DNA of 64,000 nucleotides from Gammaproteobacteria bacterium. GTDB taxonomy: Bacteria; Pseudomonadota; Gammaproteobacteria; Coxiellales; Coxiellaceae. The notes under the pieces are model-generated. The model worked only from the letters and a program-made list of their open reading frames with translations, made no database searches and had not been told where the DNA came from. A program made the position numbers and the translations under genes. The stretch lies in assembly GCA_026399315.1 (NCBI GenBank), contig JAPLRF010000033.1:16260-80259 (forward strand), given 5' to 3'. Positions 3,667 through 56,165 of this stretch are shown here, piece after piece (the stretch's first letter is position 1; every line of letters begins with the position of its first letter).

Positions 3667-3707
3667 AGATCCCTCTGCTTTAATGCAAAAATTATAACAG
3701 TGAATAG

Positions 3708-3868
3708 GTATCCGCTCCATTTTTCAGAGTGACATCAATATTATTGCTGTTGCTAGAAGTTATCGGGGGTCTGCTGTCAGGGATCAGTATTCGTATTCTG
3801 ACACCGATCTCTGATCTCAGATCCCCGATCACTTTTCAATCAGTGCAATAGATAAAAATATCCGTTAT
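3708..3868. repeat. Interspersed ~160-bp element, 'family D' copy D1, with imperfect terminal inverted repeats (GTATCCGCTCC ... AAATATCCGTTAT)
   Basis: The left half (GTATCCGCTCCATTTTTCAGAGTGACATCAATATTATTGCTGTTGC...) recurs inverted at 59931-60007. The right half (..GATCAGTATTCGTATTCTGACACCGATC..CCGATCACTTTTCAATCAGTGCAATA) recurs at 40380-40505, 54719-54899 and 59578-59674. Confidence 0.7.
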
Positions 3869-3903: not shown

Positions 3904-5304
3904 ATGGAAATTAGCGTATTCGATTTGTTTTCAATCGGCATTGGTCCTTCCAGCTCGCATACGGTTGGACCGATGCGTGCCGCTTATGATTTTATAAAAC
4001 AACATTCTGCGGACGAATTAAATGAAATCACGCGCATTACTGCACGATTACACGGCTCACTTGCTTTTACGGGAATTGGCCACGGCACCAACAAAGCAAT
4101 CTTAATGGGATTTTGTGGCGAACTTCCAGAATCTATTGATCCTTTTACCATCGATTCACGCGTTGAAACAATTTGCGAATCTAAAAAAATAAATATATTC
4201 GGAAAAAATAATATTAATTTCAATAACGAAAAAAATATTGTATTTGATTACGAAAACTTATTGCCACACCATTCTAATGGCATGACCTTCACATCATTTG
4301 ATCAGAATGAAAAAATAATCCATCAAGCCATTTATTATTCTGTTGGCGGCGGATTTATTGTGTCAGAAAAACAGCTGCAAAATCCCGCTGAAATTGCATC
4401 ACACACATTACCCTATCAATTTGATTCTGCCGCTGAATTATTAATACATTGTAAAAAATTAAATTGCACTATCGCTGAATTAATGATGAAAAATGAATTA
4501 TCCTGGCGTGATGAAAAAACGATAAAAGAAAAATTAATGCGGATTGCTGATACGATGGCTGAGAGCATTAACAATGGCTGTATTACGGCAGAAACTATTT
4601 TACCAGGCGGATTAAAAGTAAAACGGCGTGCACCCAAGTTATACGAGAAATTAATGAAGGCAGGTGATGCCAAAATGCAAGGCATCTTGTTAATGGAATG
4701 GTTGGATTTATATGCCATTGCCGTGAATGAGGAAAATGCCGCGGGTCATCGCATTGTGACAGCGCCAACGAATGGCGCTGCAGGTATTATTCCATCTGTA
4801 TTAGAGTATTTAAAAGTATTTTATTTAAAAAGCGCGGAAGCGGAGGCTTGCTTGCAAACCGCGCAAAACAAAATTTGTGATTTTTTATTAACCGCCGCAG
4901 CCATTGGTATTTTATACAAAAAAAACGCCTCGATTTCAGGTGCGGAAATGGGTTGTCAGGGGGAGGTCGGCGTTGCCTGCTCAATGGCAGCAGCAGCATT
5001 AACTGCTGTTTTAGGCGGCAGCATTTACCAAGTTGAAAATGCCGCTGAAATTGGAATGGAACATAACTTAGGCCTAACTTGTGATCCAGTTAAAGGACTA
5101 GTACAGATTCCTTGCATCGAAAGAAATGCCATGGGCGCCGTCAAGGCGGTTAATGCAACACAATTGGCGCTTGCTGGAGATGGCGAGCATAAAGTGTCAC
5201 TCGACATGGTTATTAACACGATGCGAGAAATTGGTAATAATATGAGTACAAAATACAAAGAAACTTCTTTGGGTGGTTTGGCTGTCAATGTGATTGAGTG
5301 TTGA
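3904..5304 (+). CDS. sdaA: L-serine dehydratase (iron-sulfur, single-chain)
   Basis: [70 protein letters not shown] and [21 protein letters not shown] are collinear with E. coli SdaA. Confidence 0.9.
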
Positions 5305-5312
5305 GAAATAAA

Positions 5313-8300
5313 ATGACGATTATAAAAATAGCTATAAAGATAGATGAAGAAGAAAAAGAATGGTTATTAGATAATGAAGCGCTGACAAACGCATCTACAA
5401 ACTATCTAGATTTGGGTATCGGTGGTGATGAGGGCAATTTACGCGTAATGGGTTTTCGCTCATATCATCATAAAATCACTCAAGAACTTAACAAAGACCC
5501 TCGCGGCATAAATAATATCCGTGATTTCATACTGCTTATTTGCACCGTTGTTTTTAGAAGTGCGTTTATTAGCAATCAATTCGGGGAAATGATACTTCAA
5601 CATTTAAATCTTCATAGGAATGAACTAGGAGAAATTCAGTCAGCACTTGAAATAACAGATGAGGCCTGCGGGAAATTGGAAGCCATATTAAGAATGCCGC
5701 TAGATAAAGACGGCATTGTTTCCGCCATTGGCAATAAAAACAATATTAGAGCTGCTCCTTTTTTCAAGAGATTGGTCAACTTTCTAGAAAGATATCCTTT
5801 TCAAGCAGAAAGACCGTGCAATGAAAAAAAAGCCACCATTAACTTATTAGAAAAACTAAATCAACTGCAAAGATCTGAAACACCCAATGCGCTCACTCCT
5901 ATTTCTCTGCTAAGTGATCCTGAGTACGAAAGATCAAACATTATCGACCAAGCCAAGGTTAACCAAATGATAGCGACGTATATGCTAGCCTTGTTTAAAG
6001 TCACGTCATCTTCATTTCAAAACACACTCTTAAGCAACATGGGAGTTACTCATGACGCCTTAATTGTGATTGAAAAAGCATACCGCGACATTTTAAGTAA
6101 TGAAAATGATTCTTATGTATTACAGAACAGCATTGATTTATCAGCAGCATTAACAGCTGACATTGAGAAAAAATACAGTATGCTATTATTTAAAAATTAC
6201 CCTCATATTATACCAAAGCAATTTACCGCATCACTTTACGCCGTTAAATATTATTTATCTGAATGCGCCGACAGCATTGGGAAGTTTGGAAAGCACGACC
6301 GGGCCGGTTACATTCGCGCAAGTCATTTGGAGTTTTTTTTATTGGCTATGAAATTAAAATTGGAATCCCATACGCCAGAATCAAATCCACTTACTATGCA
6401 CCATGATGATTCAAAAGAATTTTACACGCTCATTTTCGCGCTTGTCTTTAAATCAGGGTCAACAGATCTCAAAACAAGAATTATATGGGCACTTGGCTTA
6501 AATGAATATCAATTAAAAAATCTACAAACGGAATTAAAGGTCGAAGATGCAGCCATTCTTCATTGCGCTGAAAAATTAAATAAATCATTTATGCCGATAA
6601 ATAATGTTGAATGGATTGCATTTAAGAAAAAACTGGTTTTGGGTGTCAATAATTACAGATCAACACATTCTGGCGGTAAGGCTGGCAAAACAAGGGCTAA
6701 TCATTTCAATGCAGCCTTAAATAATATTAAATTTGAAAACAGCGTGACAATCGGGCAAGACGAAGGCCGTGATTTATTGAAGCTTATTTATTTGCTTATT
6801 CTGCACACCAACTTAAATTTCAAGAAAAAATTTAGAGATTGCCTATTAAATGAAATTTTATGGACAGTGAATCAAGTGAAAACCTTGCCAGATTTCTATC
6901 CCTTGTTATGTGGTGATTTCCGAAATTTAAGCAAAGCCGATGCAGATAAAATTTTTACCGACTGGAAACCAAAAAGAGATGCCAGTAATTTTTTATTGGC
7001 AAAAGAAGAAGAACAAATCCAAATTAGCAAATGTGATATTGAAAAATTAAAAGAACAACTGTTACTTGCCATTACTGCATTTCAAAAATCAGACCTGGGC
7101 AATAATGAAGAAAAAGTAATTGCCCATAACCTAAAGATGAAAATTAATGCGCTAATTGAAATTTCATCACATGAAGAAAGAGCAACCCTCGTTTTATATG
7201 CAACTTACTCAATCGCAACGGTTGGCGTAGAAAATTTACAAGAAGCCATTTTAGATTTTATTTCTGTTGCACCGCTTAAGATTGAAAAAAAAGAATTACA
7301 TACTTTAAGACAACAATATGGCTTGCCGAATTCATGCTATCGTGAATTAAAAGAAATACTAATTGAAAAACACACCAGTTCAACGAGAAAACCAAGAGAA
7401 TGCCTCGACGAAAGGGAATTGGAAGATGCCGGCATAAATCCAAGCAGCGTGCGTTCCTGTCACCAAGAATTAAATGATGAAGATCAGGCGCAAGAAAATG
7501 TAGAGAGATTTTCAGTTGGAATGTCAGTTGCAGCAGATCGCTACCTGATTACAGAACGCGGTGGCATCAGTGGTGTTGGCGAAATGCGTGCTTATTATCT
7601 CAAAAAATCTATAGGAGAAGTCACTCATTCTTCCCTATCTGCCATTGAAAAAGAAACATTATTAATTCACATTATGCTGGCGGTTGTTTTATACGCTGAA
7701 CCAAAATCAACCGTGTTGCGCAATAAAATATTAACTCATGTTGGCATTAGCCTTTCGTCAGTTTCAGCACTGGAAGTGAAGTATCCCCATTCAAAACAAA
7801 CAGCCATTCAAATTCAAAAAAAATTAATTTCATGGGATGAATTGAGTTTTCAACAACCATTTTTCACACATAATCCACCTAGTTTAGCTGAATTTCAAAT
7901 GAGCATGCCGATTAATTTAAATCGCAGTGTTTTTTGGAGAACATCGACTGCACCACAATGCGACATTATCGCTAATCATAATCAATTTAAAAAAGCTATT
8001 TTAGATGCTGTTTCAATTTATTTAATTGGGAATGAGGAAGGGGTCAAAACGATTTATACAGCCATCAACAATAACATCTCTTTCGATAAAAAATTAACCG
8101 GCGTATTAAAATCGCTTATTTTGATTGAAATGATTAACCAAATTGGGAATACAAACAATCTAATCGAAAAGAAAAAATTAATTTTATTCGCTTGTTCGTT
8201 TGTTCTATTTGCTAAATCTATTGGATTAAAGGATAAGATCATTGCACAAACAAATATTACCGAGCCACAGTTCCAGGAATTAAAAAATGCGTGGGGCTTA

Positions 8301-29075: not shown

Positions 29076-29864
29076 CTACCGGGCGCGTTTCTGAACTATT
29101 TGAAATAAACTTCTGAAGTTGTCGCTTGTTGCAGTTGCCACTTCTTCAATGGAAATATTTTTTATCTCAGCGATTTTTTCAGCGACGTAACGAACGTATT
29201 TTGGTTCGTTTTGTTTTCCACGGAAAGGCATGGGCGCTAAATACGGAGAATCCGTTTCAATTAATATTTTATCAAGCGGGACATAACGCGCAACTTCCAC
29301 TAATTCTTTTGCGTTTTTAAAAGTAATAATGCCAGAAAATGAAATATAAAAATTTAAATCCAGCGATGCCTTTGCCATTTCCAAACTTTCAGTGAAGCAA
29401 TGCATCACGCCACCCACCTCATTGGCGTTTTCATCACGCATTATTTTCAAGGTATCTTCACTTGCATTGCGCGTATGGACAATTAAAGGTTTTTTTGTTA
29501 ATTTCGCAGCGCTAATGTGATCGCGGAAACGTTGTCGCATCACTTCTAATTTATCGGAATTATAATGATAATCTAAACCGGTTTCACCGATGGCAACCAC
29601 TTTCGGGTGTTTTGCTAACTCACATAAGGTTTCAACGGATAAATCATCTTCTTCTTTTTCGCTGGGGTGTGAACCGACAGAGCAATAAACGTTTTCGTAT
29701 TTTGAAGCGATTTCAGCGCATTTTTTCGCGGAAATCATATCGACGGCAACGCAGAGCATTGCGTTTACCCCGGCTTGTTTTGTTTCGAGCATGAAGCGGT
29801 CGAAATTGTTGTCATAAGAGGGTAAATCAAGCATGTAGGGGTGGCAGTGTGAATCGATGAACAT
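29076..29864 (-). CDS. ycfH: TatD-family metal-dependent hydrolase (YcfH-like)
   Basis: MFIDSHCH..., GETGLDYHY, HTR.A and DSPYLAP motifs, with the conserved position downstream of holB. The last ~6 codons lie in a GC-rich repeat. Confidence 0.85.
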   Translation of the reverse strand: MFIDSHCHPYMLDLPSYDNNFDRFMLETKQAGVNAMLCVAVDMISAKKCAEIASKYENVYCSVGSHPSEKEEDDLSVETLCELAKHPKVVAIGETGLDYHYNSDKLEVMRQRFRDHISAAKLTKKPLIVHTRNASEDTLKIMRDENANEVGGVMHCFTESLEMAKASLDLNFYISFSGIITFKNAKELVEVARYVPLDKILIETDSPYLAPMPFRGKQNEPKYVRYVAEKIAEIKNISIEEVATATSDNFRSLFQIVQKRAR

Positions 29865-29994
29865 TTTAATTTCTCTTGGTTAGGAATACATACATTTCAA
29901 AATGTATGTTTTTATAAAATTCTGCGCCACCCGCTAACGCGGGGGCTTCCGTGCTAATTCACCAGCTCATTGATGAATATTTCTTCATGCAATA

Positions 29995-31056
29995 TTACGC
30001 ACAAGCTACTGAGCGCGTTTCTGAGCTGAATTTTATAAAAATACTTTCTAGGCATAACTGGGTGTTTAAATTAATCCCTCTGGATAAAAATAATTTTTTT
30101 TCATTAAGATGATCAATACATTCCTGCAATTTTATGGGTAATATTTTTTCTGCAATTTTTTCAAGCAGCGGGAAAATATCGTTATTTAAAATATAAGTTA
30201 TTTCTACTTTATTGTGCATACGAGAAATATCGACGCACAGCAAGGTGAGTATCTCCAATATTAAATTAATATCTTGTTTTAACCAAGCGGCTATTGGCGC
30301 AATGGGATTTGCGCGATGTAAAATAATTTGTTCAAGGTGATTTGCAATTTGGTCGCGCAATTGTAAATAATGGTTGTCGGATAGTATTTTTACTTTTAAA
30401 GGTGCATTGCCCGATAAACGCAACAAAATTGCACTGTCTTTTTCAGTGGGCATTTCTTTTGTCAGCCAAGTTAAAGCACTTTTTTCATCAGCAGAAAATA
30501 ATATTTTTTGGCAACGGCTATAAATTGTTGCTGGCAATGGGTGTTCTTGGTTGTCGATTAAAAAAATAATAACCTTACCGCTGGGTTCTTCAAGTGTTTT
30601 TAACAAGGCATTCGCCGCTTGCACTGGCATAGAATCAGCAGGTGAAATAATAATAACTTGATATCCACCTGCGTGGGATGTTCTGGAGATTTTTTCAGTG
30701 AGTTCGCGGATTTGATCTATTTTAATTATTTTGGATTTTTCTTCGGGACTAATCATTAAAAAATCGGGGTGGGTGTTTGCGGAGAATTGTTTGCAGGATT
30801 TACAGGTGTTGCAGGACTGCGCGGTCGCTATCGCTTCCGCTTCCATACGCTTCGTAGAAAGTTCGTTCAGAGAATACTGCGCGGTTGCTGTCCCTGCATT
30901 TTGAGAACACAGTAAAAAACCCGCAAATTCATGCGCAAAATCAGTTTTTCCTAAACCTGATACACCCGATAATAAATAAGCATGCGCTAAACGATTTTGC
31001 AAAAATGCACTATGCAATAAATTAAATTGTTTTTGCTGCCAAGGATAAATCATCAT
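29995..31056 (-). CDS. holB: DNA polymerase III delta' subunit
   Basis: YPWQ start, HAYLL.G..GLGK, the Cys cluster C..SCNTCKSC, ANALLKTLEEP and SRCQ motifs. It overlaps tmk by 4 nt. It carries an in-frame repeat insertion (30811-30897). Confidence 0.8.
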   Translation of the reverse strand: MMIYPWQQKQFNLLHSAFLQNRLAHAYLLSGVSGLGKTDFAHEFAGFLLCSQNAGTATAQYSLNELSTKRMEAEAIATAQSCNTCKSCKQFSANTHPDFLMISPEEKSKIIKIDQIRELTEKISRTSHAGGYQVIIISPADSMPVQAANALLKTLEEPSGKVIIFLIDNQEHPLPATIYSRCQKILFSADEKSALTWLTKEMPTEKDSAILLRLSGNAPLKVKILSDNHYLQLRDQIANHLEQIILHRANPIAPIAAWLKQDINLILEILTLLCVDISRMHNKVEITYILNNDIFPLLEKIAEKILPIKLQECIDHLNEKKLFLSRGINLNTQLCLESIFIKFSSETRSVACA

Positions 31057-32767: not shown

Positions 32768-32827
32768 GATTACTCGCTTTGATAGTTTGAACTTATGGGA
32801 ATGAAAAACGACTTATCGCTCATTCGC

Positions 32828-32937
32828 GCGAGGGCTACCGCCCCCGCTTCTGTGCTATCCACGCGCTCGGAGCTTTGAGGCTCAACGCTTTGTTATGATT
32901 CCACTCGCTAACGCTCGGGGCTCTGAGGCTCGGCGCT
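32828..32937. repeat. GC-rich short-repeat cluster in the fabF 3' flank (families B and A)
   Basis: GCGAGGGCTACCGCCCCCGCTTCTGTGCT is followed by two tandem units related to CCACTCGCTAACGCTCGGGGCTCTGAGGCTCG. The same motifs occur at 35266-35294, 44351-44386, 46366-46404, 56049-56165 and 57393-57477. Confidence 0.8.
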
Positions 32938-35237: not shown

Positions 35238-35294
35238 GGGTTCTCCAATTCTGTGCTGTTTAAAATTCCACTCGCTGACGCTCGGGGCTGTGAG

Positions 35295-36230
35295 TTAAAG
35301 ATTAATAATATCTTTTGAAATTCGTTTATTTAGTCCCGCCAATACTTTTCCTGGCCCGCATTCATAAAAGGTGTTGACGCCATTGTTCATCATATACTGA
35401 ATGGTTTCGACCCAACGCACTGGTGAAATTAATTGTCGGACCAAAGCGTCGCGAATATCAGTGGAAGTGTGGTGAATTTTTACATCGGCATTTTGAATAA
35501 CAGAAATTGCAGGGGATTTAATTTCAATGGATTTTAATTTTTCTGCCATGGCATCCGCAGCACTTTGCATGAGGGCACAGTGTGATGGCACACTGACAGG
35601 GATTTTTTTTGCTATTTTCGCGCCTTTTTCGTCTGCTAATTGAATGGCTTTTTCAACGGCAGATGTATTGCCTGCTATTACTATTTGGCCGATGGAATTA
35701 TAATTGGCAGGACTGACTGCGCGGTCGCTATCGCTTCCGCTTCCATTCACTCTAGATAATTCATCGCTTATGTATTGACTGGCTTGCTTGCAAATTTCTT
35801 CAACGACGTGATCTTCTAATCCCACAATCGCGGCCATTGCGCCCGCCCCCGGCAAAACAGCTTCTTGCATAAACTTTCCACGCGCAGAAACCAATGAAAT
35901 AGCATCATTAAAATGAATGGCCTCAGCACAAACCAGCGCAGCATACTCACCCAAACTGTGACCCGCTAAAAATGTTGGTTTTTCATCGTGTGATAATTTC
36001 CAACATTCGTATACGGCGATATCTGCCGCTAACAATGCCGGCTGTGTAAATTCAGTTTGATCTAATTTTTCTGCGGGGCCATTTTGCGTTAATTCCCATA
36101 AATCGTAATGCAAAATATCGGATGCTTGATTAAATAATTTTTTTACGCAAGCATGTTGCACAGCTAATTCAGATAACATGCCGATGGATTGCGAACCCTG
36201 ACCAGGAAAGATAAGTGCGAAGTGCGTCAT
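35295..36230 (-). CDS. fabD: Malonyl-CoA-ACP transacylase
   Basis: FPGQGSQ, GHSLGEY and VSVPSHC motifs. It contains a ~16-codon GC-rich insertion (about 35717-35764). Confidence 0.9.
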   Translation of the reverse strand: MTHFALIFPGQGSQSIGMLSELAVQHACVKKLFNQASDILHYDLWELTQNGPAEKLDQTEFTQPALLAADIAVYECWKLSHDEKPTFLAGHSLGEYAALVCAEAIHFNDAISLVSARGKFMQEAVLPGAGAMAAIVGLEDHVVEEICKQASQYISDELSRVNGSGSDSDRAVSPANYNSIGQIVIAGNTSAVEKAIQLADEKGAKIAKKIPVSVPSHCALMQSAADAMAEKLKSIEIKSPAISVIQNADVKIHHTSTDIRDALVRQLISPVRWVETIQYMMNNGVNTFYECGPGKVLAGLNKRISKDIINL

Positions 36231-38221: not shown

Positions 38222-38289
38222 TTGACAATCCTGAGAAAAAACACATCGTGATAATCAAACGCAGCCTTTCAGCCACGTTTCTGTGCTAT

Positions 38290-40242: not shown

Positions 40243-40379
40243 ATGCTTAATTTTAAATAAAATATGCTTAATTTTAAATAAAATCACTTTAATGCAAAGT
40301 TCACAACGCGCAATGAAGCAGTGAGTGTGTGCGAAGGTGGGGACTAAACGAACGGGAACAAAGCGATAACATTATAATT

Positions 40380-40505
40380 GTATCCGCTCCAAATTTTAAG
40401 GCGACGAAAATAGTATTGCACTAACTGAAAAGTGATCGGGGATCAGTGTCAGAATGCGAACACCGATGCCCGATGCCCGATGCCTGATCTCCGACCATCG
40501 ATCCT
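40380..40505. repeat. Family D element, partial copy D2
   Basis: GTATCCGCTCCAAATTTTAAGGCGACGAAAATAGTATTGCACTAACTGAAAAGTGATCGGGGATCAGTGTCAGAATGCGAACACCGATGCCCGATG. It is near-identical to 59578-59674. Its upstream flank (40338-40379) matches the inverted flank at 60008-60050. Confidence 0.7.
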
Positions 40506-44288: not shown

Positions 44289-44401
44289 AAAATCACCTAC
44301 CCAATATTAAATTGAAAAAATCCTGGTTTAATTCTCCTGACTTTTTTAGAATTCCACTTGCTAACGCTCGGGGCTCTGAGGCTCGATCATTCCATTCGAA
44401 T

Positions 44402-46204: not shown

Positions 46205-46326
46205 AACTGATTGAAAATTCCAGGACACCCACATTAAAATTTAAAAAAACAGTATTGTTGACGTTCACATTGGATTTTAACAGTGTCAATGAAAATGCGA
46301 ACCTCAAGCAATGAACGATCAAAAGC

Positions 46327-46404
46327 GGTGGGCTAATGCACCAGGGTTGTGCATTGCTAGAATCGCGTGAGGGCTACCGCCCCCACTTCTGATAGTTCAT
46401 CGCT
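46327..46404. repeat. Family B palindromic repeat, left copy, flanking the 1,281-aa gene
   Basis: GGTGGGCTAATGCACCAGGGTTGTGCATTGCTAGAATCGCGTGAGGGCTACCGCCCCCACTTCTGATAGTTCATC. Its reverse complement, with ~6 mismatches over 75 nt, is at 50477-50551. Confidence 0.85.
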
Positions 46405-49400
46405 AAATTGACATTTTCATTGGTAATGACTGTAGTTTATCAACAGGGGAATAGCGACACCTTTGAGAAGATCTACTGCCTTGTTCCCTGAAAAATCCAG
46501 CGTAATGAGGACTACCCTTTGATGCAGAATCGTCTCGAAATGATGTATTTAAATGAGGAGTATCATCGCCTTCCACATTATTCGAATGTGATGGTTTTTC
46601 TGCTGGATCACCATTCGAATCAACCGGACTAACAGCAGAAGAAACGGACCCGTGTTCTGCACTACGCGGCGATGTCATTTGATATGTTCGCACAATTCCG
46701 AGCGCTACTGGATTTTTCCCCGTTAATAATTCGCAAACAGCTGATGTAGCAGGAAGTAAATCACCACTTTCATTCACAGCAGCAAACACAGCGCGAAATG
46801 CAGTGCGAATATTATTTTCAGAAATCGAGTCCTTACCAAGCTTCTTACTTATATCGTCGTTAAATTTATTTCGAGGTTCATTAATTGGTTTTTCTTCTTT
46901 GTCACTTTTATTTTTTGGATATAGCGTTTGCAAAACGAATGAAGTGATATCAGTATGTTCTACAAACCCCTTAGCCATAAAATTTCCACATATACTTCTT
47001 AATGCAGTAACCAATGTCGATTGATCTTTGCCTTCCTTGTTTCCGATATTGAGCTTGTCATATTCCACTAAAACAGCTTCAAGCACAAACAAGTAATCCT
47101 TAACATCAACAGTCCGCACTACTTTCTCGTGCGTGGTTGCATCATAAAATGGCGCATTTGATGTTGCTCGCGGTCTAGCTGTGTTAGGACTGTTTGCATT
47201 TCCCAACTCATCACGTTGTGCTTGCTCAAGTTTTTCGATTTCTGCACAAGCCTCATCTGTTTTTTCACACACTTCTTCTGCCAATTTTTGCGTTGGTGAT
47301 AATCGATTGAAATCAAATTCGCAGCCCGCCAATGCGTTAACAAATGCTTTGCGTTGATCTATAGATTCCTTCGTATTATTAGATTCCTTCGTATTATTTT
47401 CTACTAACCTAAACGCTTCAAAAAACGCGCCATTACCTGACAAATCAGCGCTCGCGCCCTCACTGGATTTGCATGCCGATAATTCTTTGCGGAATAATCG
47501 TTGCAATGAGGCCAACATAATAGAATCACGTTTTTCGTGAAGGGTGATTCTTTCCTCATCCATTTTTTTGTCAATCATTTCCACTTCATCGCGAAACAAT
47601 GTTTTCAAAATAGTTAGGGTAATATTGCTATCACCGTTAATATTTTTATTAAACGATTTTAAACGCAGTAAGGGAACAGATCGCGTCAAACTTCCTTTGA
47701 ATTTCGCTAAATTATCAATAACTTTTTGAAGTGAAGCAAGATGATTACCTTGAATTGAAATAGCACTTGCAGCGCTAAGAATATGCTCCGATAGAACATC
47801 ATCATTATCATGCGCAAAAGAATCACTTTCTTTCTTAACTTGAGGCATCACCAACCTCACTTCCGCCATCGATGCGCGCCACAAGGGCACATTATCTGGG
47901 CGTTTGGTGCTGGCAGCGCGGGTTTTCCCTACAACCCAGCGCGCAAAACGCGTAAATCCAGAAACAACAGGTGCCTCGGCATCACTGCCTGTTGCGCGCA
48001 TAACCGCAACCACCGGAGTTGATACTGCGTAAGTCGCAAGACGAAATGGCCATGTTATTATTGCACGCAAGCCATCGATCACGCCTGCCGCATTATTATA
48101 ACCAGAATATTTATCCCATACTCGCAAAGTAGTGTGGTCCGCATCGAAAAAACGCATTGCTGCATGAATCGGCACGCCGATCACCAAACCAAAACAAGCA
48201 TGCACTAAACGAAAGACGCCGCCCACTAAAGTTTCTGTCATTTCTTTTGCAAGCTGCCATCCGCGACTTGTTTGCGGTATTGTTTTTTTCTGTTCGCGTT
48301 GCACTGAGTTACCTTGCGTTTTTAATTTTTCAATACGCGCAAAAAATTTATTTTCGTCTTCACTGCTGATTTTGATTTCAGGATTCGCTGATTTTAAAAA
48401 ATGATACAGCGGCAATAATTGATCGAATAAAATGGTGGCAGGTTTAATGGACGCCGTCATTTCATCAAATATTTTCCAATTGCCTTCTGAGCTTTGTTCA
48501 TGCATTTTTAAAATCATCACATGGCCCATGGCGTAAAATGCCGCTGTTCCTGAAACAGGATCACGTCGACCCATATTTTCAAACACGCCTGAAATAGCGC
48601 TGGCAATATGATAAATGGTTGCAAATATACTTGAACGCAAAAATAAGGGACCTTGTTTGTGGTCGGGTTTAGCAAGAATGGGATTTAATTTATTTTCTGC
48701 AAGCATCAAATCCGTCAAATCCGTCAAATCCGATAATTTTATTTCATTTTTAGTTTCTAATGGATTAAGTTTAGAGCACAGTTCTCGCGTTTGCATTATT
48801 TCTGATAGCTTGAAAAACGGAGATAAATGTTTCTGTAAATGATCATTGTTGACAGTGAGTTTTTTATAATTTTCATCTAGTGCTGACAATAAAGCATGCA
48901 AAATAATATTTGCACGTAATTTTGTTTTTTTATTGTTATCATAAGTAGCATATGAATCATTAATTTCTTGTTCAACCTTATTGCAAAAAGCAGCGTAATA
49001 ACCTGCATCATCCAAAATCGGTTTCCCCTCCTGACCAATCGATTTCAATATTTTCCGTGCAACATCTTTCGCTTCTTCTTCTAGCGCAGAATCAGGCGTC
49101 ATATCATAGGCTTTCGTCACATTGCGGGGTTTCAAATCATCTTTCACTGCAAAAAACGCTTTTCCAATCGCAGCGCCACATAAGGGAAGCAGTAACGCGA
49201 GACCGACTGTAAGATTAACCACTGTATTTACGGTATAAACAACACCGCGCGCAAAGAATTTGCCAATGCGTTTTACATGCCCATCAGCTCTATTCGCACG
49301 TAGCATGCTGGGTAATGGGTCTGGTAATTGCCACACACTGATGCCAACGCTTGGTTTGATATTTTCCACCTGCGCTTTAAATTCTTTTTTATTAGCATCC

Positions 49401-50248
49401 GTTAGATTTGAAAATTCTTTTTTGAGTAAATAAGCATGCACCACATTATCGCGACCTTCTGCAGACAAAGGTTTTGTATTGCTATAACTTACATAGCCTG
49501 GAAATTTTAATTGATCGGCTACGGTAACTTTAAGATAGCCATTATTTTCAGCATCAAAAGGCCATTTAAAATCTTCAACCGCTTTTATCGCATCTAAAAT
49601 AACATCATCCGCATGACGTGTTGTTTTTGAACGGCCATCCGTTTGACGTAGTACACCCCGCAAAGTCGCTAATACTTCTAATACACCACCACGAATAATT
49701 TCTTGCTGTTCGTGTGAGTTTGGGTCTGTTTTTAATTCTAACGCGTGAAATTCTTTTAATTGTTTTTGGATAGCAATTATTTGTTTGTATTTATGTGTGG
49801 CGTTTGGATCTTGATTTAATTTTGCAAGATCATTACTTGATAATTCAGCTTCACCTTGATTATTTAATTTAGGTTGAAGTCCAAAAGAACGTTCGACATC
49901 GGCAATATATAAACCCAATGTGGAAATCGCAAGCGTGACCAGCGATGTTGCATCTAAACCCAAACCACGGTCAACCGCAGCATTCCATTCTTGGCTGTCA
50001 AAAGTAATGGGGTCGACATTCAATGATGTGATTAAACCGAATAAATGATCGTCATGGTGAAAGCCGAAAATGTCAGGTGCTGATGATTGAGTTTGTGGTT
50101 CAGCATTTTCACGAGGGCTATTTTGCGTGCTGTCTGCTTGCGAAATGCGAAATTCAATGATATCGCCATCGTTTTTTTTATAAACAGTTGATGCGATTTG
50201 AACATCATTTTTCTTTTTAAAATTACTTGGCGTATTAGACATATACAT
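46403..50248 (-). CDS. Large orphan protein (1,281 aa) with central hydrophobic hairpins (candidate membrane-targeted effector)
   Basis: Uninterrupted ORF. Hydrophobic stretches include VVYTVNTVVNLTVGLALLLPLCGAAIGKAFFAV and GGVFRLVHACFGLVIGVPIHAAM. In-frame tandem duplications are present. A PmrA-type promoter lies upstream. Confidence 0.7.
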   Translation of the reverse strand: MYMSNTPSNFKKKNDVQIASTVYKKNDGDIIEFRISQADSTQNSPRENAEPQTQSSAPDIFGFHHDDHLFGLITSLNVDPITFDSQEWNAAVDRGLGLDATSLVTLAISTLGLYIADVERSFGLQPKLNNQGEAELSSNDLAKLNQDPNATHKYKQIIAIQKQLKEFHALELKTDPNSHEQQEIIRGGVLEVLATLRGVLRQTDGRSKTTRHADDVILDAIKAVEDFKWPFDAENNGYLKVTVADQLKFPGYVSYSNTKPLSAEGRDNVVHAYLLKKEFSNLTDANKKEFKAQVENIKPSVGISVWQLPDPLPSMLRANRADGHVKRIGKFFARGVVYTVNTVVNLTVGLALLLPLCGAAIGKAFFAVKDDLKPRNVTKAYDMTPDSALEEEAKDVARKILKSIGQEGKPILDDAGYYAAFCNKVEQEINDSYATYDNNKKTKLRANIILHALLSALDENYKKLTVNNDHLQKHLSPFFKLSEIMQTRELCSKLNPLETKNEIKLSDLTDLTDLMLAENKLNPILAKPDHKQGPLFLRSSIFATIYHIASAISGVFENMGRRDPVSGTAAFYAMGHVMILKMHEQSSEGNWKIFDEMTASIKPATILFDQLLPLYHFLKSANPEIKISSEDENKFFARIEKLKTQGNSVQREQKKTIPQTSRGWQLAKEMTETLVGGVFRLVHACFGLVIGVPIHAAMRFFDADHTTLRVWDKYSGYNNAAGVIDGLRAIITWPFRLATYAVSTPVVAVMRATGSDAEAPVVSGFTRFARWVVGKTRAASTKRPDNVPLWRASMAEVRLVMPQVKKESDSFAHDNDDVLSEHILSAASAISIQGNHLASLQKVIDNLAKFKGSLTRSVPLLRLKSFNKNINGDSNITLTILKTLFRDEVEMIDKKMDEERITLHEKRDSIMLASLQRLFRKELSACKSSEGASADLSGNGAFFEAFRLVENNTKESNNTKESIDQRKAFVNALAGCEFDFNRLSPTQKLAEEVCEKTDEACAEIEKLEQAQRDELGNANSPNTARPRATSNAPFYDATTHEKVVRTVDVKDYLFVLEAVLVEYDKLNIGNKEGKDQSTLVTALRSICGNFMAKGFVEHTDITSFVLQTLYPKNKSDKEEKPINEPRNKFNDDISKKLGKDSISENNIRTAFRAVFAAVNESGDLLPATSAVCELLTGKNPVALGIVRTYQMTSPRSAEHGSVSSAVSPVDSNGDPAEKPSHSNNVEGDDTPHLNTSFRDDSASKGSPHYAGFFREQGSRSSQRCRYSPVDKLQSLPMKMSI

Positions 50249-50311: not shown

Positions 50312-50476
50312 ATTAACGCTTAATTTTTTCGAATTTACGTAAATCCCCCCGGTTTTAAAGCGAACTATTTTATTGCACATTTAGACAAAATTGCGCTTTA
50401 TAACCGCCCCCTTTTTCAAAGGGGGGTGATCGCATTGTTCAGATAGTCCCATCGCCAATGAAGATGCGAATTCAGA

Positions 50477-50551
50477 GATGAACTATCAGAAGTGGGGGCG
50501 GGAGCCCTCACGCGATTCTAGCAATGCAAAGCCCCGGTGCATTACCCCACC
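50477..50551. repeat. Family B palindromic repeat, right (inverted) copy
   Basis: Reverse complement of 46327-46404 (see that entry). A related fragment lies at 50588-50630, and a partial copy at ~53976-54023. Confidence 0.85.
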
Positions 50552-50704
50552 CCTTTCCTGCTTTTTTAAAAATATTTTGTGTGTTTGCGCGAGGGCTACC
50601 GCCGCTCGCTTCCGTTGGTTCGTCGCTAGATTTTATCGCCACCGCTTTTGGATGTGTTAAATGAAATTCATCGGCAGATTGAGTTGGGTATCATTTGAAT
50701 TATT

Positions 50705-51518: not shown

Positions 51519-53915
51519 TTATGCCCTCAAAGTTGCGTTCAACTCCCGTTCAAGCGCGATGACAACACCATGAATTATCGCGTTTATTTCCTCATCTACT
51601 AGAGTGCGTGATGGATCTTGAAACGTCAAGCCCAAAGCGATACTTTTTTTGCCCAATTCTATATTTTTACCTTGATAGACATCGAAAATCATCACATCCT
51701 GAAGCTGAGAACCCGCCTGCTGCTTAACTAAAGTGCTTATTGCAGCGGCCGAAGTTGCCTCATCAACCACAATCGCCAAATCACGGCGAACCGATGGAAA
51801 ACGTGAAAAAGTTTCATAATGCGGCACTGAGATTCGCTTAATCGCTTCCAAATCGAGCTCGCAAACGATGACCGGTTGGCGAATATCGAAGTGATTGAGG
51901 ATCTGCGGATGCACTTCGCCCAGATAGCCGATGAGCTTGCCGTCGCGCATGAGCGAACACGAACGCCCCGGATGCAATGCAGTATTAACAAGGCTTTCAT
52001 TAGCATGCATGGAAACGGAAGCGACAGCGACCGTGTGATCGAAAAGAAGCGCTTGAATATCCGCTTTTAAATCATAAAAATCCACCGCGCGCTTTTTCTC
52101 ACCCCACTGTTCTGACACTACGCTACCGGTAATAACCATCGCCAACTTCGGCGTTTGCGCATCACCAGAAAAACACAAACCCGTTTCAAATAAACGCACA
52201 CGTTCACATTGATGGCGCAAATTCAGTTGAACTGCTTGTAATAAACCTGGCAATAAACTATCGCGCATCACAGACATATCTTGTGATAAAGGATTTTTCA
52301 AGGTAATTGGTTTTGCCGCCGGTGAAAACAAAGAAAACAATTCCGGAGAAATAAAACTATACGTAATGGCTTCATGATAATCGCGATCGATTAAAAAGTG
52401 GCGGATTTTTTTGTCACTTAATTTTCCTTCTGCGTGCGATTTCATGCTTAAATTCGCCACCATTTCCAAGGAAGGAATCGTATCGTATCCGGTCATTCGC
52501 GCTAATTCTTCGATTAAATCAACCGGCAAACTCACGTCAAAACGAAAACTGGGCGGAATCACTTCCCAGCCATTTTCCAGCGATTCTACAATGAAACCCA
52601 GTGATTCTAAAATTCGCACGACATGATTATCTGCGATAACAATCCCCACTGTTCGCTGAATTTGATCGCGCGCTAAAAATATTGCTTCACGCCTTGGTAA
52701 ATTATTTTCTGAAACCACTTCAATTATTTCTTCTACCGTACCACCCGCAATCTCTAAAATTAATTGTGTCGCGCGCTCAATTGCCTCACGCGGCAAACTA
52801 AAATCGACACCGCGCTCGAACCGATGTGAACCATCGCTCGTAATACTGTGTCTTCTTTTACTTAAGCAAACTGTTTTCGGCAAGAAAAAACACGCCTCTA
52901 GAAATATATCTTTTGTATTTGTTGTTACGCTCGAATCAACGCCGCCCATCGCACCCGCTAATGCCAGCGGCTTTTCTTCATCTGCAATAATTAAATCGTT
53001 TTCTGTTAATGTAATGAATTGCTCGTCTAATAATTTTATTTTTTCATTTGATTTGGCGCGACGTACAATAATGTTATTTTTAATGGTTGATAAATCGAAA
53101 GCATGCATCGGCTGACCCAATTCCAACATGACATAATTTGTAATATCGACAACAGGATTAATTAAGCGCGTGTTGGCGCGTTGCAAGGCATGTTGCATAT
53201 AAGACGGTGTTTGCAGTGTATTATTCACATGACGAATAACGCGACCGACGTAACGTGGACAGTCTTCTGGGGCTTGTATCGAGATTGACAATGAAGATTG
53301 GGAGCTTGTGATTGGTGTTATTTTTACTGATTCCTGATGTTTTATCGCTGATCCCTGTATCGCTGCTGCCAAATCACGTGCAACACCGCGAATACTCAAT
53401 GCATCGCCGCGATTCGGCGTGATATCCACATCAATAATGCAATCATTTGATTTGAAATAATCATTAAAATCATCGCCGATTTTTGCATCAGCGGGCAATT
53501 CTATAATGCCATCAATCAATGATTTCCCCATTTCCAATTGCAATTCTTTTGCGGAGCACAACATGCCTTGCGATAATTCACCGCGCAACTTAGCTTCTTT
53601 AATTTTAAAATCACCCGGTAAAACTGCACCAACGGTTGCAACAGCCACCTTAATGCCTGCGCGCGCATTGGGTGCACCACAAACGATTTTCAATAATTCT
53701 TTTTCGCCAACATTCACCTCACAGCAAGATAATTTGTCGGCATTGGGATGCTGAGCACGCGTGACGATTTCACCAATGACAACACCGGAAAATTTTCCAG
53801 CAACAGGCGTAATGGCATCGACCGTCAAGCCAAGCATCGCCATTTGTTCGGTTAATTGTTCTGTTGTTAAGGCAGGGTTCACCCACTGACGTAACCATTG
53901 TTCGCTGAATTTCAT
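51519..53915 (-). CDS. pheT: Phenylalanine-tRNA ligase beta subunit
   Basis: [14 protein letters not shown] start (ATG 53913-53915), with tRNA-binding, B3/4, B5 and FDX-ACB regions in order. ~798 aa. Confidence 0.9.
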
Positions 53916-54139
53916 CGGTGAATTCCTCATTTATTTAAGCGCCCATCATACCCCGATATTTTACAAAAACAAAACCGTTCGTACTGTGAAAATGCGAATT
54001 TAACGATGAACTATCAGAAGTGGGAGCGGTAGGTATAAAATTAAAGTCATCTTTTCCTTTCGGAAATTTATATCGTTTAAATTGTCAAGAGCCATAAAAT
54101 ACGTTATATCTGTACAGATGCTTTACAAGACACATAGGA

Positions 54140-54718: not shown

Positions 54719-54899
54719 GTATCTACTCCAAACTCAGAGGGTAACTGAAATAGTTGCTGTTAGGGGTATCAGGGATCAGCTGTCTGGGATCGGTGTTCGC
54801 ATTCTGACACCGACCCCCGATCTCAGATCCCGGATCCCGGATCACTTTTCAGTTGGTGTATTGCTATTTCCGTCACCCTCTAATTTAGAGCGGATACAT
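54719..54899. repeat. Family D element, full-length copy D3 (~180 bp)
   Basis: Termini are GTATCTACTCCAAA ... TTTAGAGCGGATAC (inverted). The interior matches both halves of copy D1. The right end abuts the pheS stop codon. Confidence 0.75.
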
Positions 54900-55966
54900 T
54901 AAAACTGCTCAAGAAAGCGTAAATCATTTTCAAACATAACGCGCAAATCATTAATACCATAATGCAGCATGGCCAAACGTTCTAAACCAATACCAAAGGC
55001 AAAACCCGTATATTTTTTTGAGTCAATCCCAACATTTTCTAAAACATTAGGATGAACCATGCCACAACCCAGCACTTCAAGCCAGCGGATGTGCGCACCA
55101 CAAGCTTGTTGCACTACGGCAGATTCATTACCCGTTCGCGCGCAGGCTTCCGCCCCCGCTTCCGTTCTATTTGATTTCCACTCAATATCCACTTCCGCAG
55201 ACGGTTCTGTAAACGGAAAATAACCAGGGCGAAAACGCAAAGGAATTTCTTTTTCAAAAAAGGCGTTTAGGAAATTCTGCAACAAACTTTTTAAATGCGC
55301 AAAATTACAATGCTCATCCACTACCAATCCTTCTAATTGATGAAACATGGGCGTGTGTGTTGCGTCATAATCTCGGCGATATACCCTACCCGGCGTGATT
55401 ATTCTAATCGGTGGCTTTTGATTTTTCATGACGCGAATCTGCACGGGCGATGTATGCGTTCGCAATAATTTTCCATCCGGGAAATAAAATGTGTCTTGTG
55501 ATTCCTTTGCAGGATGATGATCAACAAAATTCAATGCGGAAAAATTATGATAATCGTCTTCAATTTCTGGGCCTTCTTCTACAGAAAAACCCATTTGCGC
55601 GAATAATTCAATAACACGTTCACGCACGCGCGTGACTGGATGCAAACATCCTGTCGATTGTTGCCCACGACCCGGCAAAGTAACATCAATTTTTTCCGAT
55701 GATAATTTTTCGTTTAATTCAGCAGTTTTAAATTGATTGTCTTGCGCATTTAATAAATCTTGAATTTGGGTTTTAGCATCATTAATTAACTGCCCTACTT
55801 TCGGACGTTCATCAGCGCTCAGCTGACCAAGCTGCTTCATTAATTCAGTGAGGTCGCTTTTTTTACCTAAATATTTAATACGGAGGTCTTGAATATCGGC
55901 TACGTTTTTAGCGGAGGCGATGAGGGATTTTGCTTCGTTGATGATGATGTTTAATTTATTCTGCAT
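54899..55966 (-). CDS. pheS: Phenylalanine-tRNA ligase alpha subunit
   Basis: Collinear with E. coli PheS ([57 protein letters not shown]). The start is set at the second ATG (55964-55966), which has GGAG 6 nt upstream. It carries an in-frame GC-rich insertion. Confidence 0.9.
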
Positions 55967-56005: not shown

Positions 56006-56048
56006 GAATTAAATACTCAGGCGAATAGGAGTGTGTGCATTGGTTATT

Positions 56049-56165
56049 TTCCACTCGCTAATGCTCGGGGCGCTGAGGCTCGGGGCTCTGAGCGCTGAGG
56101 TTAGTTTCCACTCGCTGACGCTCGGGGCTCTGAGGGCTCGGGGCGCTGAGGCACGAGCGGTGAGC
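56049..56165. repeat. Tandem array of GC-rich family A repeats in the rplT 3' flank
   Basis: Two ~55-nt units: CCACTCGCTAATGCTCGGGGCGCTGAGGCTCGGGGCTCTGAGCGCTGAGG and CCACTCGCTGACGCTCGGGGCTCTGAGGGCTCGGGGCGCTGAGG. Confidence 0.85.

What the first reader, a model, noticed from the sequence alone, without database searches (positions are those of the whole stretch)
30811..30897. 87-nt repeat inserted in frame inside holB, within the zinc-module loop of DNA polymerase III delta'
Seen in sequence: GCAGGACTGCGCGGTCGCTATCGCTTCCGCTTCCATACGCTTCGTAGAAAGTTCGTTCAGAGAATACTGCGCGGTTGCTGTCCCTGC is 29 codons long and clearly more GC-rich than the gene. Its termini are inverted (GCAGGAC...GTCCCTGC), and it contains an internal direct repeat CTGCGCGGT[C/T]GCT.

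It encodes AGTATAQYSLNELSTKRMEAEAIATAQSC between LLCSQN and NTCKSCKQ. From memory, E. coli delta' has only C-x8-C-x2-C-x2-C at this point.

About 40 nt of the element recur inside fabD (35707-35745), where they are read in a different frame.

Established knowledge: Rickettsia palindromic elements (RPEs) insert in frame into essential genes.

Inference: this is an analogous selfish-repeat phenomenon in this lineage.
Basis: partly seen in the sequence, partly recalled or inferred. Interest (0 to 1): 0.75.

Follow-up and report, generated by a model that had tools for sequence, protein, structure and literature searches.

The report
REP repeat inserted inside holB gene
A short mobile-type DNA repeat (a REP, the kind spread by a RAYT transposase) sits in frame inside the clamp-loader gene holB of an uncultured Coxiellaceae-like bacterium, adding a floppy loop to the protein; this kind of in-gene repeat is already known from other bacteria.

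Summary
holB (29995-31056, minus strand) carries a GC-rich segment (57% vs 35% GC). It adds about 24 residues between the first two zinc-ligand cysteines of DNA polymerase III delta'. Close orthologues have only 5-10 residues there.

The repeat unit is not an 87-nt element with inverted termini. The insert is about 1.4 tandem units of a repeat whose core is ATGGAAGYGGRAGCGNYAGCGACCRCG. One supposed terminus is host Ser-Cys codons.

The core recurs in fabD and pheT in the window. About 40 copies were found in the sampled Coxiellaceae MAG loci, roughly three quarters of them intergenic and the rest in frame inside genes such as carB, dnaK and fabD. In three sampled MAGs the repeat lies next to a Y1/HUH transposase gene (JGI name "RayT"); inverted copies flank that gene in two of them. 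In related metagenome contigs it forms inverted doublets (REPINs).

So this is an intragenic REP of a REP-RAYT system. It works like Rickettsia RPEs but is not one. Intragenic REPs, often in replication and repair genes, were described in 2013.

Extras:
- The insert is conserved at DNA level rather than peptide level.
- Paralogous copies evolve in concert.
- The same delta' loop holds a different GTAG-REP in a sister lineage.

Verdict: new member of a known kind, moderate interest.

The parts
29995..31056 (-). holB (DNA polymerase III delta' subunit), 353 aa, intact ORF that hosts the insert
   Evidence: ORF listed. It is 100% identical to NCBI MAG protein MCX7121037.1 / NTZ67_04595, with Pfam PF13177 + PF09115. 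It aligns to E. coli delta' 1A5T at E 7e-35. The AF2 model has mean pLDDT 87 and pTM 0.82.
30814..30897 (-). REP-derived in-frame insert (residues ~A54-S81). It consists of a full unit at 30814-30873 and a partial upstream unit (3' ~24 nt) at 30874-30897.
   Evidence: The family profile matches 30815-30869 at E 2.7e-10. The direct repeats are 60 nt apart. GC is 57% vs 35%. Residues 58-77 have pLDDT <50. The segment is absent from orthologues P0003/4/5/8 and from most others.
30820..30846 (-). Conserved REP core ATGGAAGCGGAAGCGATAGCGACCGCG with a small hairpin GCGG..GC-GATA-GC..CCGC
   Evidence: Exact pattern match at 30823-30844; 0.00 matches expected by chance. Covariation on A3: three pairs show compensatory double changes and none shows a one-sided change. 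The fold is thermodynamically weak.
35711..35790 (-). Second copy, in frame inside fabD (35295-36230, minus strand). It adds 16 aa (YISDELSRVNGSGSDS) relative to L006 and E. coli FabD. Core at 35720-35746.
   Evidence: E 5e-12.
51985..52035 (+). Third copy (core 52009-52035, 1 mismatch) inside pheT (51519-53930, minus strand). It is in the opposite orientation to the gene and is read as TVAVASVSM. Net length gain is only about 4 aa versus E. coli and P. aeruginosa PheT.
   Evidence: (E 2e-6; this copy was not among the profile seeds).
29995..30028 (-). A degenerate copy of a second, related REP family (repeat family D2). It overlaps the last ~10 codons and the stop codon of holB (tail ...ETRSVACA*).
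   Evidence: Repeat family D2. Sister copies form 8-bp hairpins. The C-terminal residues 348-353 have pLDDT <50. C-terminal tails vary among orthologues.

Best explanation
The segment is a REP (repetitive extragenic palindrome-type repeat) of a REP-RAYT system that landed inside holB. The host is an uncultured Coxiellaceae-like gammaproteobacterium.

Shown:
- The insert is about 1.4 tandem units of a dispersed repeat with core ATGGAAGYGGRAGCGNYAGCGACCRCG.
- In related genomes this repeat is mostly intergenic, forms inverted doublets (REPINs) and tandem arrays, and lies next to a Y1/HUH tyrosine transposase (RAYT) gene (inverted copies on both sides in two MAGs).
- The copy in holB is in frame. 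It lies in the loop between the first two zinc ligands of delta', and it is predicted to be disordered.
- It is shared with orthologues in at least two related lineages (L001, L004), and the copy-specific 5' sequence is the same. The insertion is therefore old and vertically inherited.

Inferred:
- The RAYT moved the repeat as single-stranded DNA, as in IS200/IS605-type transposition.
- Only insertions that kept the frame and fell in a permissive surface loop survived, because holB is essential.
- The core has no stop codon in four to six of its frames, depending on the variant, which makes such survival easy.
- After insertion the copy was trimmed by in-frame indels. Its nucleotide sequence was kept REP-like by gene conversion with other copies or by selection on the DNA, not by selection on the peptide.
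For: Family and copy number:
- The core pattern gives 20 exact matches on contigs of one Coxiellaceae MAG (MGXU01) and 8 on another (MGXR01). Single matches in 30-odd unrelated genomes are roughly in line with the ~17 chance matches I estimated for this pattern.
- The profile finds 42 copies in 298 kb of sampled loci. About 10 of them lie in long ORFs.
- The window has 3 copies where 0.00 are expected.

RAYT link:
- L058 5170-5757 encodes a 195-aa protein that hits Pfam Y1_Tnp (31.4 bits, cutoff 23).
- It carries an HUH motif that aligns to IS200 transposase 2F4F.
- Inverted REP copies flank it at 5111-5172(+) and 5755-5812(-). The same arrangement occurs in L056. In L081 one copy directly abuts the C-terminal end of a homologue.
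- JGI names the homologues 'REP element-mobilizing transposase RayT'.

REPIN doublets:
- L087, L091 and L099 carry inverted doublets. The L087 doublet folds as DNA at -83 kcal/mol, z -17.9.

Hairpin:
- The core hairpin shows compensatory changes.

Insertion rather than ancestral loop:
-.
- The window and L001 inserts share copy-specific 5' parts in both holB and fabD.

Constraint at DNA level:
- Synonymous third positions are conserved at 22/23 sites in the inserts and 311/500 in the rest of the genes (Fisher p 3.5e-4). Amino-acid identity is lower in the inserts.
- Both window copies share CGCAGT, whereas both L001 copies share CGTGGT.

Tolerance:
- Residues 58-77 have pLDDT <50 in an otherwise confident delta' model.

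Precedent:
- Intragenic REPs, many in replication and repair genes, are described in PMC3733652.
Against: - No RAYT gene lies in the 64-kb window. The rest of this MAG could not be fetched. A RAYT homologue with a nearby GenBank accession (MCX7120327.1, against HolB MCX7121037.1) is only circumstantially from the same genome.
- The single-REP hairpin is short (4+2 bp) and no more stable than shuffled sequence (z -0.6 to -1.3).
- The canonical 5' GTAG tag of classical REPs is present in only a subset of copies. It is absent from the holB copy, which has CTAC instead.
- All three window copies are intragenic, unlike the mostly intergenic pattern elsewhere.
- In carA, mnmE and pheT the REP-coded residues give little or no net length gain against distant references. 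Simple insertion is therefore not demonstrated for every intragenic copy.
- Transposition by the RAYT has not been shown for this family.
Confidence: 0.8

Rival explanations
1. It is a classical MITE: an 87-nt non-autonomous transposon with terminal inverted repeats, mobilised by a DDE transposase and flanked by a target-site duplication. This is what the reader's description of inverted termini implies.
For: GCAGGAC and GTCCCTGC do sit at the two ends of the quoted interval. The window is rich in other short repeat families, some of them MITE-like. The related pathogen C. burnetii has MITEs that overlap ORF ends (PMC5896051).
Against: The termini are not shared by any other family member (A3). 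One terminus is made of host codons that are conserved at empty sites. No target-site duplication is visible. The family instead lies next to a Y1 transposase gene (inverted copies flank it in L058 and L056) and forms REPINs. QMITE1 and QMITE2 are 150-400 bp and have a different architecture.
Confidence: 0.04
2. The repeat sequence entered holB, fabD and pheT by recombination or gene conversion from genomic REP copies that overwrote a variable loop, and not by RAYT-mediated transposition into the gene.
For: Paralogous copies share lineage-specific dinucleotides, which indicates ongoing conversion between copies. In pheT, carA and mnmE the REP-coded residues replace native loop residues rather than add to them. 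In holB and fabD the REP-homologous stretch is about 15 nt longer than the net length gain.
Against: Conversion needs pre-existing homology at the site, and the empty sites in L006 show none. The holB and fabD gains of 24 and 16 residues are most simply explained as insertions followed by trimming.
Confidence: 0.1
3. The extra loop is an adaptive, lineage-specific extension of the delta' zinc module that is selected for its peptide. The DNA similarity to repeats is secondary.
For: The insert has persisted across lineages whose HolB proteins are only 67-78% identical. The same loop has been hit repeatedly. Di Nocera et al. speculate that REPs in replication and repair genes may change protein activity.
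Against: The peptide is less conserved than the rest of the protein, while its synonymous sites are more conserved. The loop is predicted to be disordered. Its length varies (31, 18, 23 and 24 residues) and it is absent in the nested P0003-5 lineage. The same DNA is read in other frames in other genes.
Confidence: 0.05

Closest known systems
REP / REPIN-RAYT systems (Nunvar 2010; Bertels & Rainey 2011, PMC3116915; Di Nocera 2013, PMC3733652), including the intragenic REPs catalogued by Di Nocera et al.
   Same: It is a short GC-rich dispersed repeat with a hairpin. It is mostly intergenic or at gene 3' ends. It forms inverted doublets with long hairpins. A Y1/HUH transposase gene is flanked by inverted copies. 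Occasional in-frame copies sit inside genes, notably DNA replication and repair genes.
   Different: The single-unit palindrome is unusually short (4+2 bp). There is no consistent 5' GTAG or CGTC tag; a G-N-Y-A-G motif sits in the loop instead. The family also forms direct tandem arrays (period 56-60 nt). The hosts are uncultured Coxiellaceae-like MAGs, and in this window every copy is intragenic. No paper in the searched library mentions REPs or RAYTs in Coxiellaceae, and 'holB' and 'polymerase III' do not occur in the main text of PMC3733652 (its supplementary gene list was not checked).
Rickettsia palindromic elements (RPE; Ogata et al. 2000/2002, as summarised in PMC3733652)
   Same: Repeats are inserted in frame in essential genes of an intracellular-type bacterium. 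They are tolerated as surface loops, inherited vertically and decay slowly.
   Different: From memory, RPE-1 elements are about 100-150 bp. They belong to alphaproteobacterial families with no associated RAYT reported. Here the unit is about 27-60 nt and is linked to a RAYT. Sequence relatedness to RPEs was not tested because no RPE consensus was available.
Coxiella burnetii QMITE1/QMITE2 (Wachter et al. 2018, PMC5896051)
   Same: The bacterial family is the same. Small repeats overlap ORF ends, and QMITE2 contains a GTAG REP.
   Different: QMITEs are 150-400 bp with direct repeats at their ends, and the reported overlaps are with ORF 3' ends only. The core pattern gave no hit in C. burnetii in the genome-collection scan.

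Membership tests
REP / REPIN-RAYT system | Short repeat present in many dispersed copies per genome | tested here: met
   20 exact core matches on MGXU01 contigs and 8 on MGXR01. 42 profile hits in 298 kb of sampled loci. 3 copies in the window where 0.00 are expected.
REP / REPIN-RAYT system | Each unit is an imperfect palindrome (hairpin) | tested here: inconclusive
   The stem GYGG..GC/GC..CCRC is paired in 98% of cells. Three pairs show compensatory double changes and none shows a one-sided change. The stem has only 6 bp, and folding energy is no better than shuffles (z -0.6 to -1.3).
REP / REPIN-RAYT system | Conserved GTAG (or CGTC) tetranucleotide at the 5' foot of the palindrome | tested here: not met
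   GTAG lies upstream of the core in only a subset of MGXU copies. The holB copy has CTAC and the fabD copy has CTAG (A3). The criterion comes from PMC3733652.
REP / REPIN-RAYT system | A Y1/HUH transposase (RAYT) gene flanked by inverted REPs | tested here: met
   L058: 195-aa Y1_Tnp protein between REPs at 5111-5172(+) and 5755-5812(-). L056: frameshifted homologue between REP arrays. L081: homologue adjacent to a REP. The NCBIfam REP_Tyr_transpos model scores only 25.5 bits, below its cutoff of 80. Homologues are named RayT by JGI.
REP / REPIN-RAYT system | Inverted REP doublets (REPINs) that form long hairpins | tested here: met
   Doublets in L087, L091 and L099 have a 114-nt start-to-start spacing. 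The L087 doublet folds at -83 kcal/mol, z -17.9. Inverted pairs also occur in L037 and L006. None occurs in the window itself.
REP / REPIN-RAYT system | The cognate RAYT is present in the same genome as this copy | not testable with these tools
   tblastn with the RAYT gives no hit in the window. The MAG is absent from the searchable DNA collections. The only hint is RAYT homologue MCX7120327.1, whose accession is 710 away from HolB MCX7121037.1.
Rickettsia palindromic elements (RPE) | In-frame insertion within intact ORFs of essential genes | tested here: met
   holB, fabD and pheT in the window. carB and dnaK in related MAGs, plus carA and an mnmE-like GTPase where the REP-coded residues sit in frame without net length gain.
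Rickettsia palindromic elements (RPE) | Sequence membership in one of the RPE families, with units of about 100-150 bp | not tested
   No RPE consensus was available. The unit here is 27-60 nt. No Rfam family matches it.
MITE | Terminal inverted repeats shared by family members, plus a target-site duplication | tested here: not met
They are partly host codons. No duplication flanks the insert.
DNA polymerase III delta' (HolB), the host gene | AAA+-like N-domain plus delta' C-domain, and a four-cysteine zinc module | tested here: met
   PF13177 + PF09115. 1A5T alignment. C50, C82, C85 and C88 are conserved in at least 90% of the aligned orthologues.

The most novel reading that the evidence does not exclude
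Intragenic REPs may not be dead fossils. They may stay in the genome's REP population: they show concerted evolution with other copies and constraint at the nucleotide level. The zinc-module loop of delta' may also be a recurrent landing site for REPs, since at least two independent hits by this family plus one by an unrelated GTAG-REP are seen in sister lineages. That would hint at a mechanistic tie between RAYT activity on replication-fork single-stranded DNA and replication genes, or at REP-driven tuning of the clamp loader. A linked point is that the same REP core and a homologous RAYT (~40% identity) occur in Pyrinomonadaceae (Acidobacteriota). That would imply either cross-phylum transfer of a REP-RAYT pair or extreme conservation of it.
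Probability: 0.12. Interest if true: 0.6.

Novelty: new member of a known kind. Interest (0 to 1): 0.38.

Why it matters
- It extends in-frame REP insertion, known from Rickettsia and a few free-living bacteria, to uncultured Coxiellaceae-like bacteria and to the clamp-loader delta' subunit.
- It offers a tidy natural experiment. The same loop is filled, trimmed, emptied or occupied by a different REP in sister lineages.
- The insert is more conserved at synonymous sites than the host gene. This is direct evidence that selection or homogenisation acts on the DNA element rather than on the peptide.
- For annotation, such segments explain odd loop insertions and C-terminal tails in MAG proteins.
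- None of this overturns current understanding. Intragenic REPs in replication and repair genes were described in 2013.

Tried and rejected
- **Exact-protein look-ups.** HolB of the window, its identical NCBI entry P0001 and the probable same-MAG RAYT P0129 are not on record. The rest of this genome could therefore not be censused.
- **RAYT homologues without usable DNA.** P0130 returned no DNA and P0151 was not on record.
- **A more distant RAYT homologue.** P0153 (L085) is flanked by a different repeat, so it does not link the Acidobacteria motif to a RAYT.
- **Terminal inverted repeats and the MITE reading.** Rejected, because the termini are not shared by the family and are partly host codons.
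- **A strong single-unit hairpin.** Not supported thermodynamically. Only covariation supports it.
- **Whole-insert RNA fold.** z -2.5 as RNA and -0.6 as DNA, which is not informative.
- **Rfam.** No match at gathering score or at E<=1.
- **QMITE1/2 of C. burnetii.** Considered and rejected on size and architecture.
- **Assembly artefact.** Rejected, because homologous inserts occur in independent assemblies from other samples (L001, L004, L084).
- **A clean insertion in pheT, carA and mnmE.** Alignment to distant PDB references shows little or no net length gain. Only holB and fabD (against close relatives) and carB (+7 aa against E. coli) are demonstrated net insertions.

Full report
**1. 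What is in the sequence**

They lie inside a 353-aa ORF on the minus strand, 29995-31056.

The product is identical to NCBI MAG protein MCX7121037.1 (locus tag NTZ67_04595, 'Gammaproteobacteria bacterium'). It carries the delta' Pfam domains PF13177 and PF09115, and its nearest named relatives are Coxiellaceae MAGs. Neighbouring genes are tatD, tmk, mltG/yceG and the fab cluster.

The window also encodes a WipA-like phosphatase and a 2833-aa protein with SecA-like domains. This fits a Legionellales-type intracellular bacterium.

The segment has 57% GC against 35% for the rest of the gene. The internal direct repeat and the fabD copy are real and far beyond chance.

**2. It is an insertion in the zinc-module loop**

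- Alignment to E. coli delta' (PDB 1A5T) breaks between E. coli residues 55 and 57, that is between Zn ligands C50 and C59. About 24 query residues are left unmatched.
- Among the 75 top-ranked HolB homologues tabulated, 65 show the CxxCxxC motif. In 58 of these the spacing between the first two cysteines is 3-11 residues; 7 have 14 or more.
- This protein has 31. P0002 has 18, P0007 has 23, P0012 has 24 and P0006 has 14.
- An AlphaFold2 model built on alignment A1 is confident overall (mean pLDDT 87, pTM 0.82). The exceptions are residues 58-77 (the insert) and the last six residues, all below 50.
- The insert is therefore most simply a disordered excursion from an intact delta' fold. All four cysteines are retained.

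**3.

DNA of the orthologues was fetched and compared.

- The shared, conserved part is a core ATGGAAGYGGRAGCGNYAGCGACCRCG, preceded by a weakly conserved ~20-30-nt leader (A3).
- The holB insert is one full unit plus the 3' ~24 nt of a second unit upstream, 60 nt apart.
- A true tandem array of the same family, with period 56 nt, exists in L056.
- The 'inverted termini' are not a family feature. On the gene strand, GTCCTGC supplies the conserved Ser-Cys codons of HolB.
- In fabD the same letters are the conserved V-S-P-A codons, which are also present at the empty site of L006.
- In fabD the 5' half of the unit is read in the same frame as in holB (DELS / NELS). The core is read one frame off (NGSGSDSDRA against MEAEAIATAQ) because of a 2-nt indel.

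**4. It belongs to a large dispersed family**

A degenerate core pattern was scanned against one genome per GTDB species. My own estimate for a pattern of this information content in about 1.2e12 positions is roughly 17 chance matches.

- 20 matches fell on contigs of one Coxiellaceae MAG (MGXU01).
- 8 fell on another (MGXR01). Other Coxiellaceae-type MAGs had single hits.
- Single hits in 30-odd unrelated genomes are of that order, somewhat above it.
- A profile built from these copies finds 42 copies in 298 kb of sampled loci.
- About three quarters are intergenic or at gene ends.
- About ten lie inside long intact ORFs: holB (window, L001, L004, L084), fabD (window, L001), carA and carB (L054), dnaK (L060), an mnmE-like GTPase (L036) and pheT (window, opposite orientation).
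- Two sense frames recur: MEVEAxATT and GSGSASDH.
- The core has no stop codon in any of six frames in its commonest variant.
- No Rfam family matches it.

**5. It is the REP of a REP-RAYT system**

- In L058 two inverted copies (5111-5172 + and 5755-5812 -) bracket a 195-aa ORF.
- That ORF hits Pfam Y1_Tnp above threshold. Its HUH motif (NHMHVVV) aligns with an IS200 transposase of known structure.
- The homologous gene in L056 is frameshifted and sits between REP arrays. In L081 a homologue abuts a REP.
- Database homologues come from Coxiellaceae and Gammaproteobacteria MAGs. Where they are named, JGI calls them 'REP element-mobilizing transposase RayT'.
- A metagenome scan for the C-G variant carried by the window found 13 loci of 37-42% GC (one outlier, L092, at 49%). 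Copies there are mostly intergenic.
- Three of those loci hold inverted doublets with a fixed 114-nt spacing. The one folded (L087) gives a ~52-bp DNA hairpin (-83 kcal/mol, z -17.9). These are REPINs.
- The single-unit hairpin is short and thermodynamically unremarkable. Even so, its stem shows three pairs with compensatory double changes and no one-sided change across 38 copies.

**6. History of the holB and fabD copies**

- The window and L001 (HolB 78% identical) share the copy-specific leader sequences in both genes. Each insertion therefore predates their split.
- L004 (67% identical) shares the dimer architecture in holB.
- On an unsupported NJ tree, the insert-bearing proteins P0001, P0002, P0006 and P0007 form a clade together with P0003-5 (7-residue loop, nested inside it) and P0008 (7-residue loop, the earliest branch). 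This implies a later loss in P0003-5.
- P0012 (L084) lies in a different clade. It carries a single unit with a different leader in the same loop, which implies an independent hit.
- In P0006 (L002) the loop instead contains GTAGAGACGCGATTTATCGCGTCTC. This is a classical GTAG-tagged REP (-10.8 kcal/mol, z -5.6) that recurs at other sites of L002 and L078.
- The loop is thus a repeatedly used permissive site.

**7. Constraint is on the DNA, not the peptide**

This comparison is between the window and L001.

- The inserts are 84-86% identical at nucleotide level against 76-79% for the rest of the genes.
- Synonymous third positions are conserved at 22/23 sites in the inserts against 311/500 in the rest (Fisher p 3.5e-4).
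- Amino-acid identity is lower in the inserts (0.68-0.71 against 0.78-0.85).
- Both window copies read ...CGCAGT and both L001 copies read ...CGTGGT. The same dinucleotide difference at two unlinked loci points to concerted evolution (gene conversion) or to co-adaptation with a genome-specific factor. This step is inference.

**8. Caveats**

- The RAYT of this particular genome could not be retrieved. The only hint is an accession-number neighbour, MCX7120327.1.
- The family lacks a consistent 5' GTAG tag.
- In pheT, carA and mnmE the REP-coded residues replace variable-loop residues rather than add to them when compared with distant references.
- Transposition itself is inferred from the architecture, not shown.

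**9. Comparison with what is known**

- Di Nocera et al. 2013 (PMC3733652) already reported REPs entirely within ORFs in several species. Many of those genes are DNA synthesis and repair genes, and the paper equated some Rickettsia RPEs with CGTC-REPs.
- REPIN-RAYT biology is well described.
- C. burnetii QMITEs are larger and different.
- This finding is therefore a new member of a known kind: an intragenic REP in a lineage and a gene not previously noted in the library I could search.
- It has three useful extras: a DNA-level conservation signature, concerted evolution of intragenic copies, and a loop hit by two REP families.
- It works like an RPE, but membership in the RPE families was not tested and is unlikely given the unit size and the RAYT link.

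**10. Verdict**

The 87-nt inverted-termini anatomy is wrong. Interest is moderate (0.38).

Noticed in passing
window 29995-30028 and 29065-29098: Copies of a second REP-like family (repeat family D2, consensus roughly CAGAAxCG-stem-GGTA-stem') overlap the last codons and the stop codons of holB and tatD. The C-terminal tails (…ETRSVACA*, …QKRAR*) are therefore repeat-derived. HolB orthologues have different or no tails, and the tail has pLDDT <50.
   Followed up: partly
window 19934-19967, 32824-32857, 38255-38288, 46349-46397, 55136-55169: Further D2/D4-family copies lie at gene ends. They fold into 8-bp hairpins whose stems differ between copies in a compensatory way. By eye, the 32824-32857 copy and the holB-type core are 19/28 identical without gaps and share the same leader-stem-GNTA-stem layout. 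This looks like a sister REP family.
   Followed up: partly
window 32888-32932, 35255-35299, 44341-44385, 56038-56139, 57405-57482: A third short repeat family (D1, ~45 nt, TTCCACTCGCTAACGCTCGGGGCTCTGAG) has 8 copies, some in tandem. One copy overlaps the fabD stop codon.
   Followed up: no
window 28751-29007 (related copy 29916-29972): A 124-nt inverted repeat, 85% complementary with a 9-nt spacer, lies just downstream of tatD. A related 57-nt copy lies between tatD and holB.
   Followed up: no
window 3688-3850, 40338-40502, 54767-54912, 59558-59676, 59929-60049: A family of ~100-200-nt repeats occurs in both orientations. It is rich in GATC-type motifs (GATCGGGGATC...) and looks MITE-like (families D5, D6, D8, D10, D11 and I3-I9).
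   Followed up: no
window 11967-12311 and 59674-59929: Two stretches, 160 nt at 92% identity and 97 nt at 97% identity, are duplicated 47.7 kb apart (D3 and D7).
   Followed up: no
window 46322-46428 and 50450-50556: 107-nt inverted repeats (88% complementary) bracket a 1281-aa ORF (46403-50248, minus strand) that has no Pfam match.
   Followed up: partly
window 20073-28574 and 15186-17645: A 2833-aa ORF has only a SecA DEAD-like domain and a SecA P-loop domain, both in its middle part; a 2948-aa counterpart follows tatD in L002. An 819-aa protein carries a WipA-like phosphatase domain, as in a Legionella effector. Both suggest a host-associated lifestyle.
   Followed up: partly
L002 3489-3513 (also L002 1556 and 14210; L078 2184, 5038, 5084): In a sister lineage the same HolB zinc-module loop holds a different repeat in frame (VETRFIASQ). 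It is the GTAG-tagged perfect palindrome GTAGAGACGCGATTTATCGCGTCTC, and it is dispersed elsewhere in that genome.
   Followed up: yes
L010, L023, L029, L041, L042, L046, L053, L070 (Pyrinomonadaceae SMAG_U933); L018, L022, L040, L051, L063 (Bryobacterales SJ270); L052, L075, L083 ('Verrucomicrobia' BWMinHeated MAG4): The same 22-nt core motif is multi-copy in Acidobacteriota genomes. Among the ~40%-identity relatives of the Coxiellaceae RAYT, the only ones that carry an organism name are from Pyrinomonadaceae or Acidobacteria. This may be a REP-RAYT pair shared across phyla. The link between RAYT and REP in those genomes was not shown.
   Followed up: partly
L056 618-755 and 1315-1564: Tandem arrays of the REP unit (4-5 copies, period 56 nt) flank a frameshifted RAYT homologue.
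   Followed up: partly
L001 4133-4981: The gene called fabG in L001 gives 282 aa, against 238 aa in the window and 237 aa in L006. This may be another repeat-derived extension or a start-codon call.
   Followed up: no
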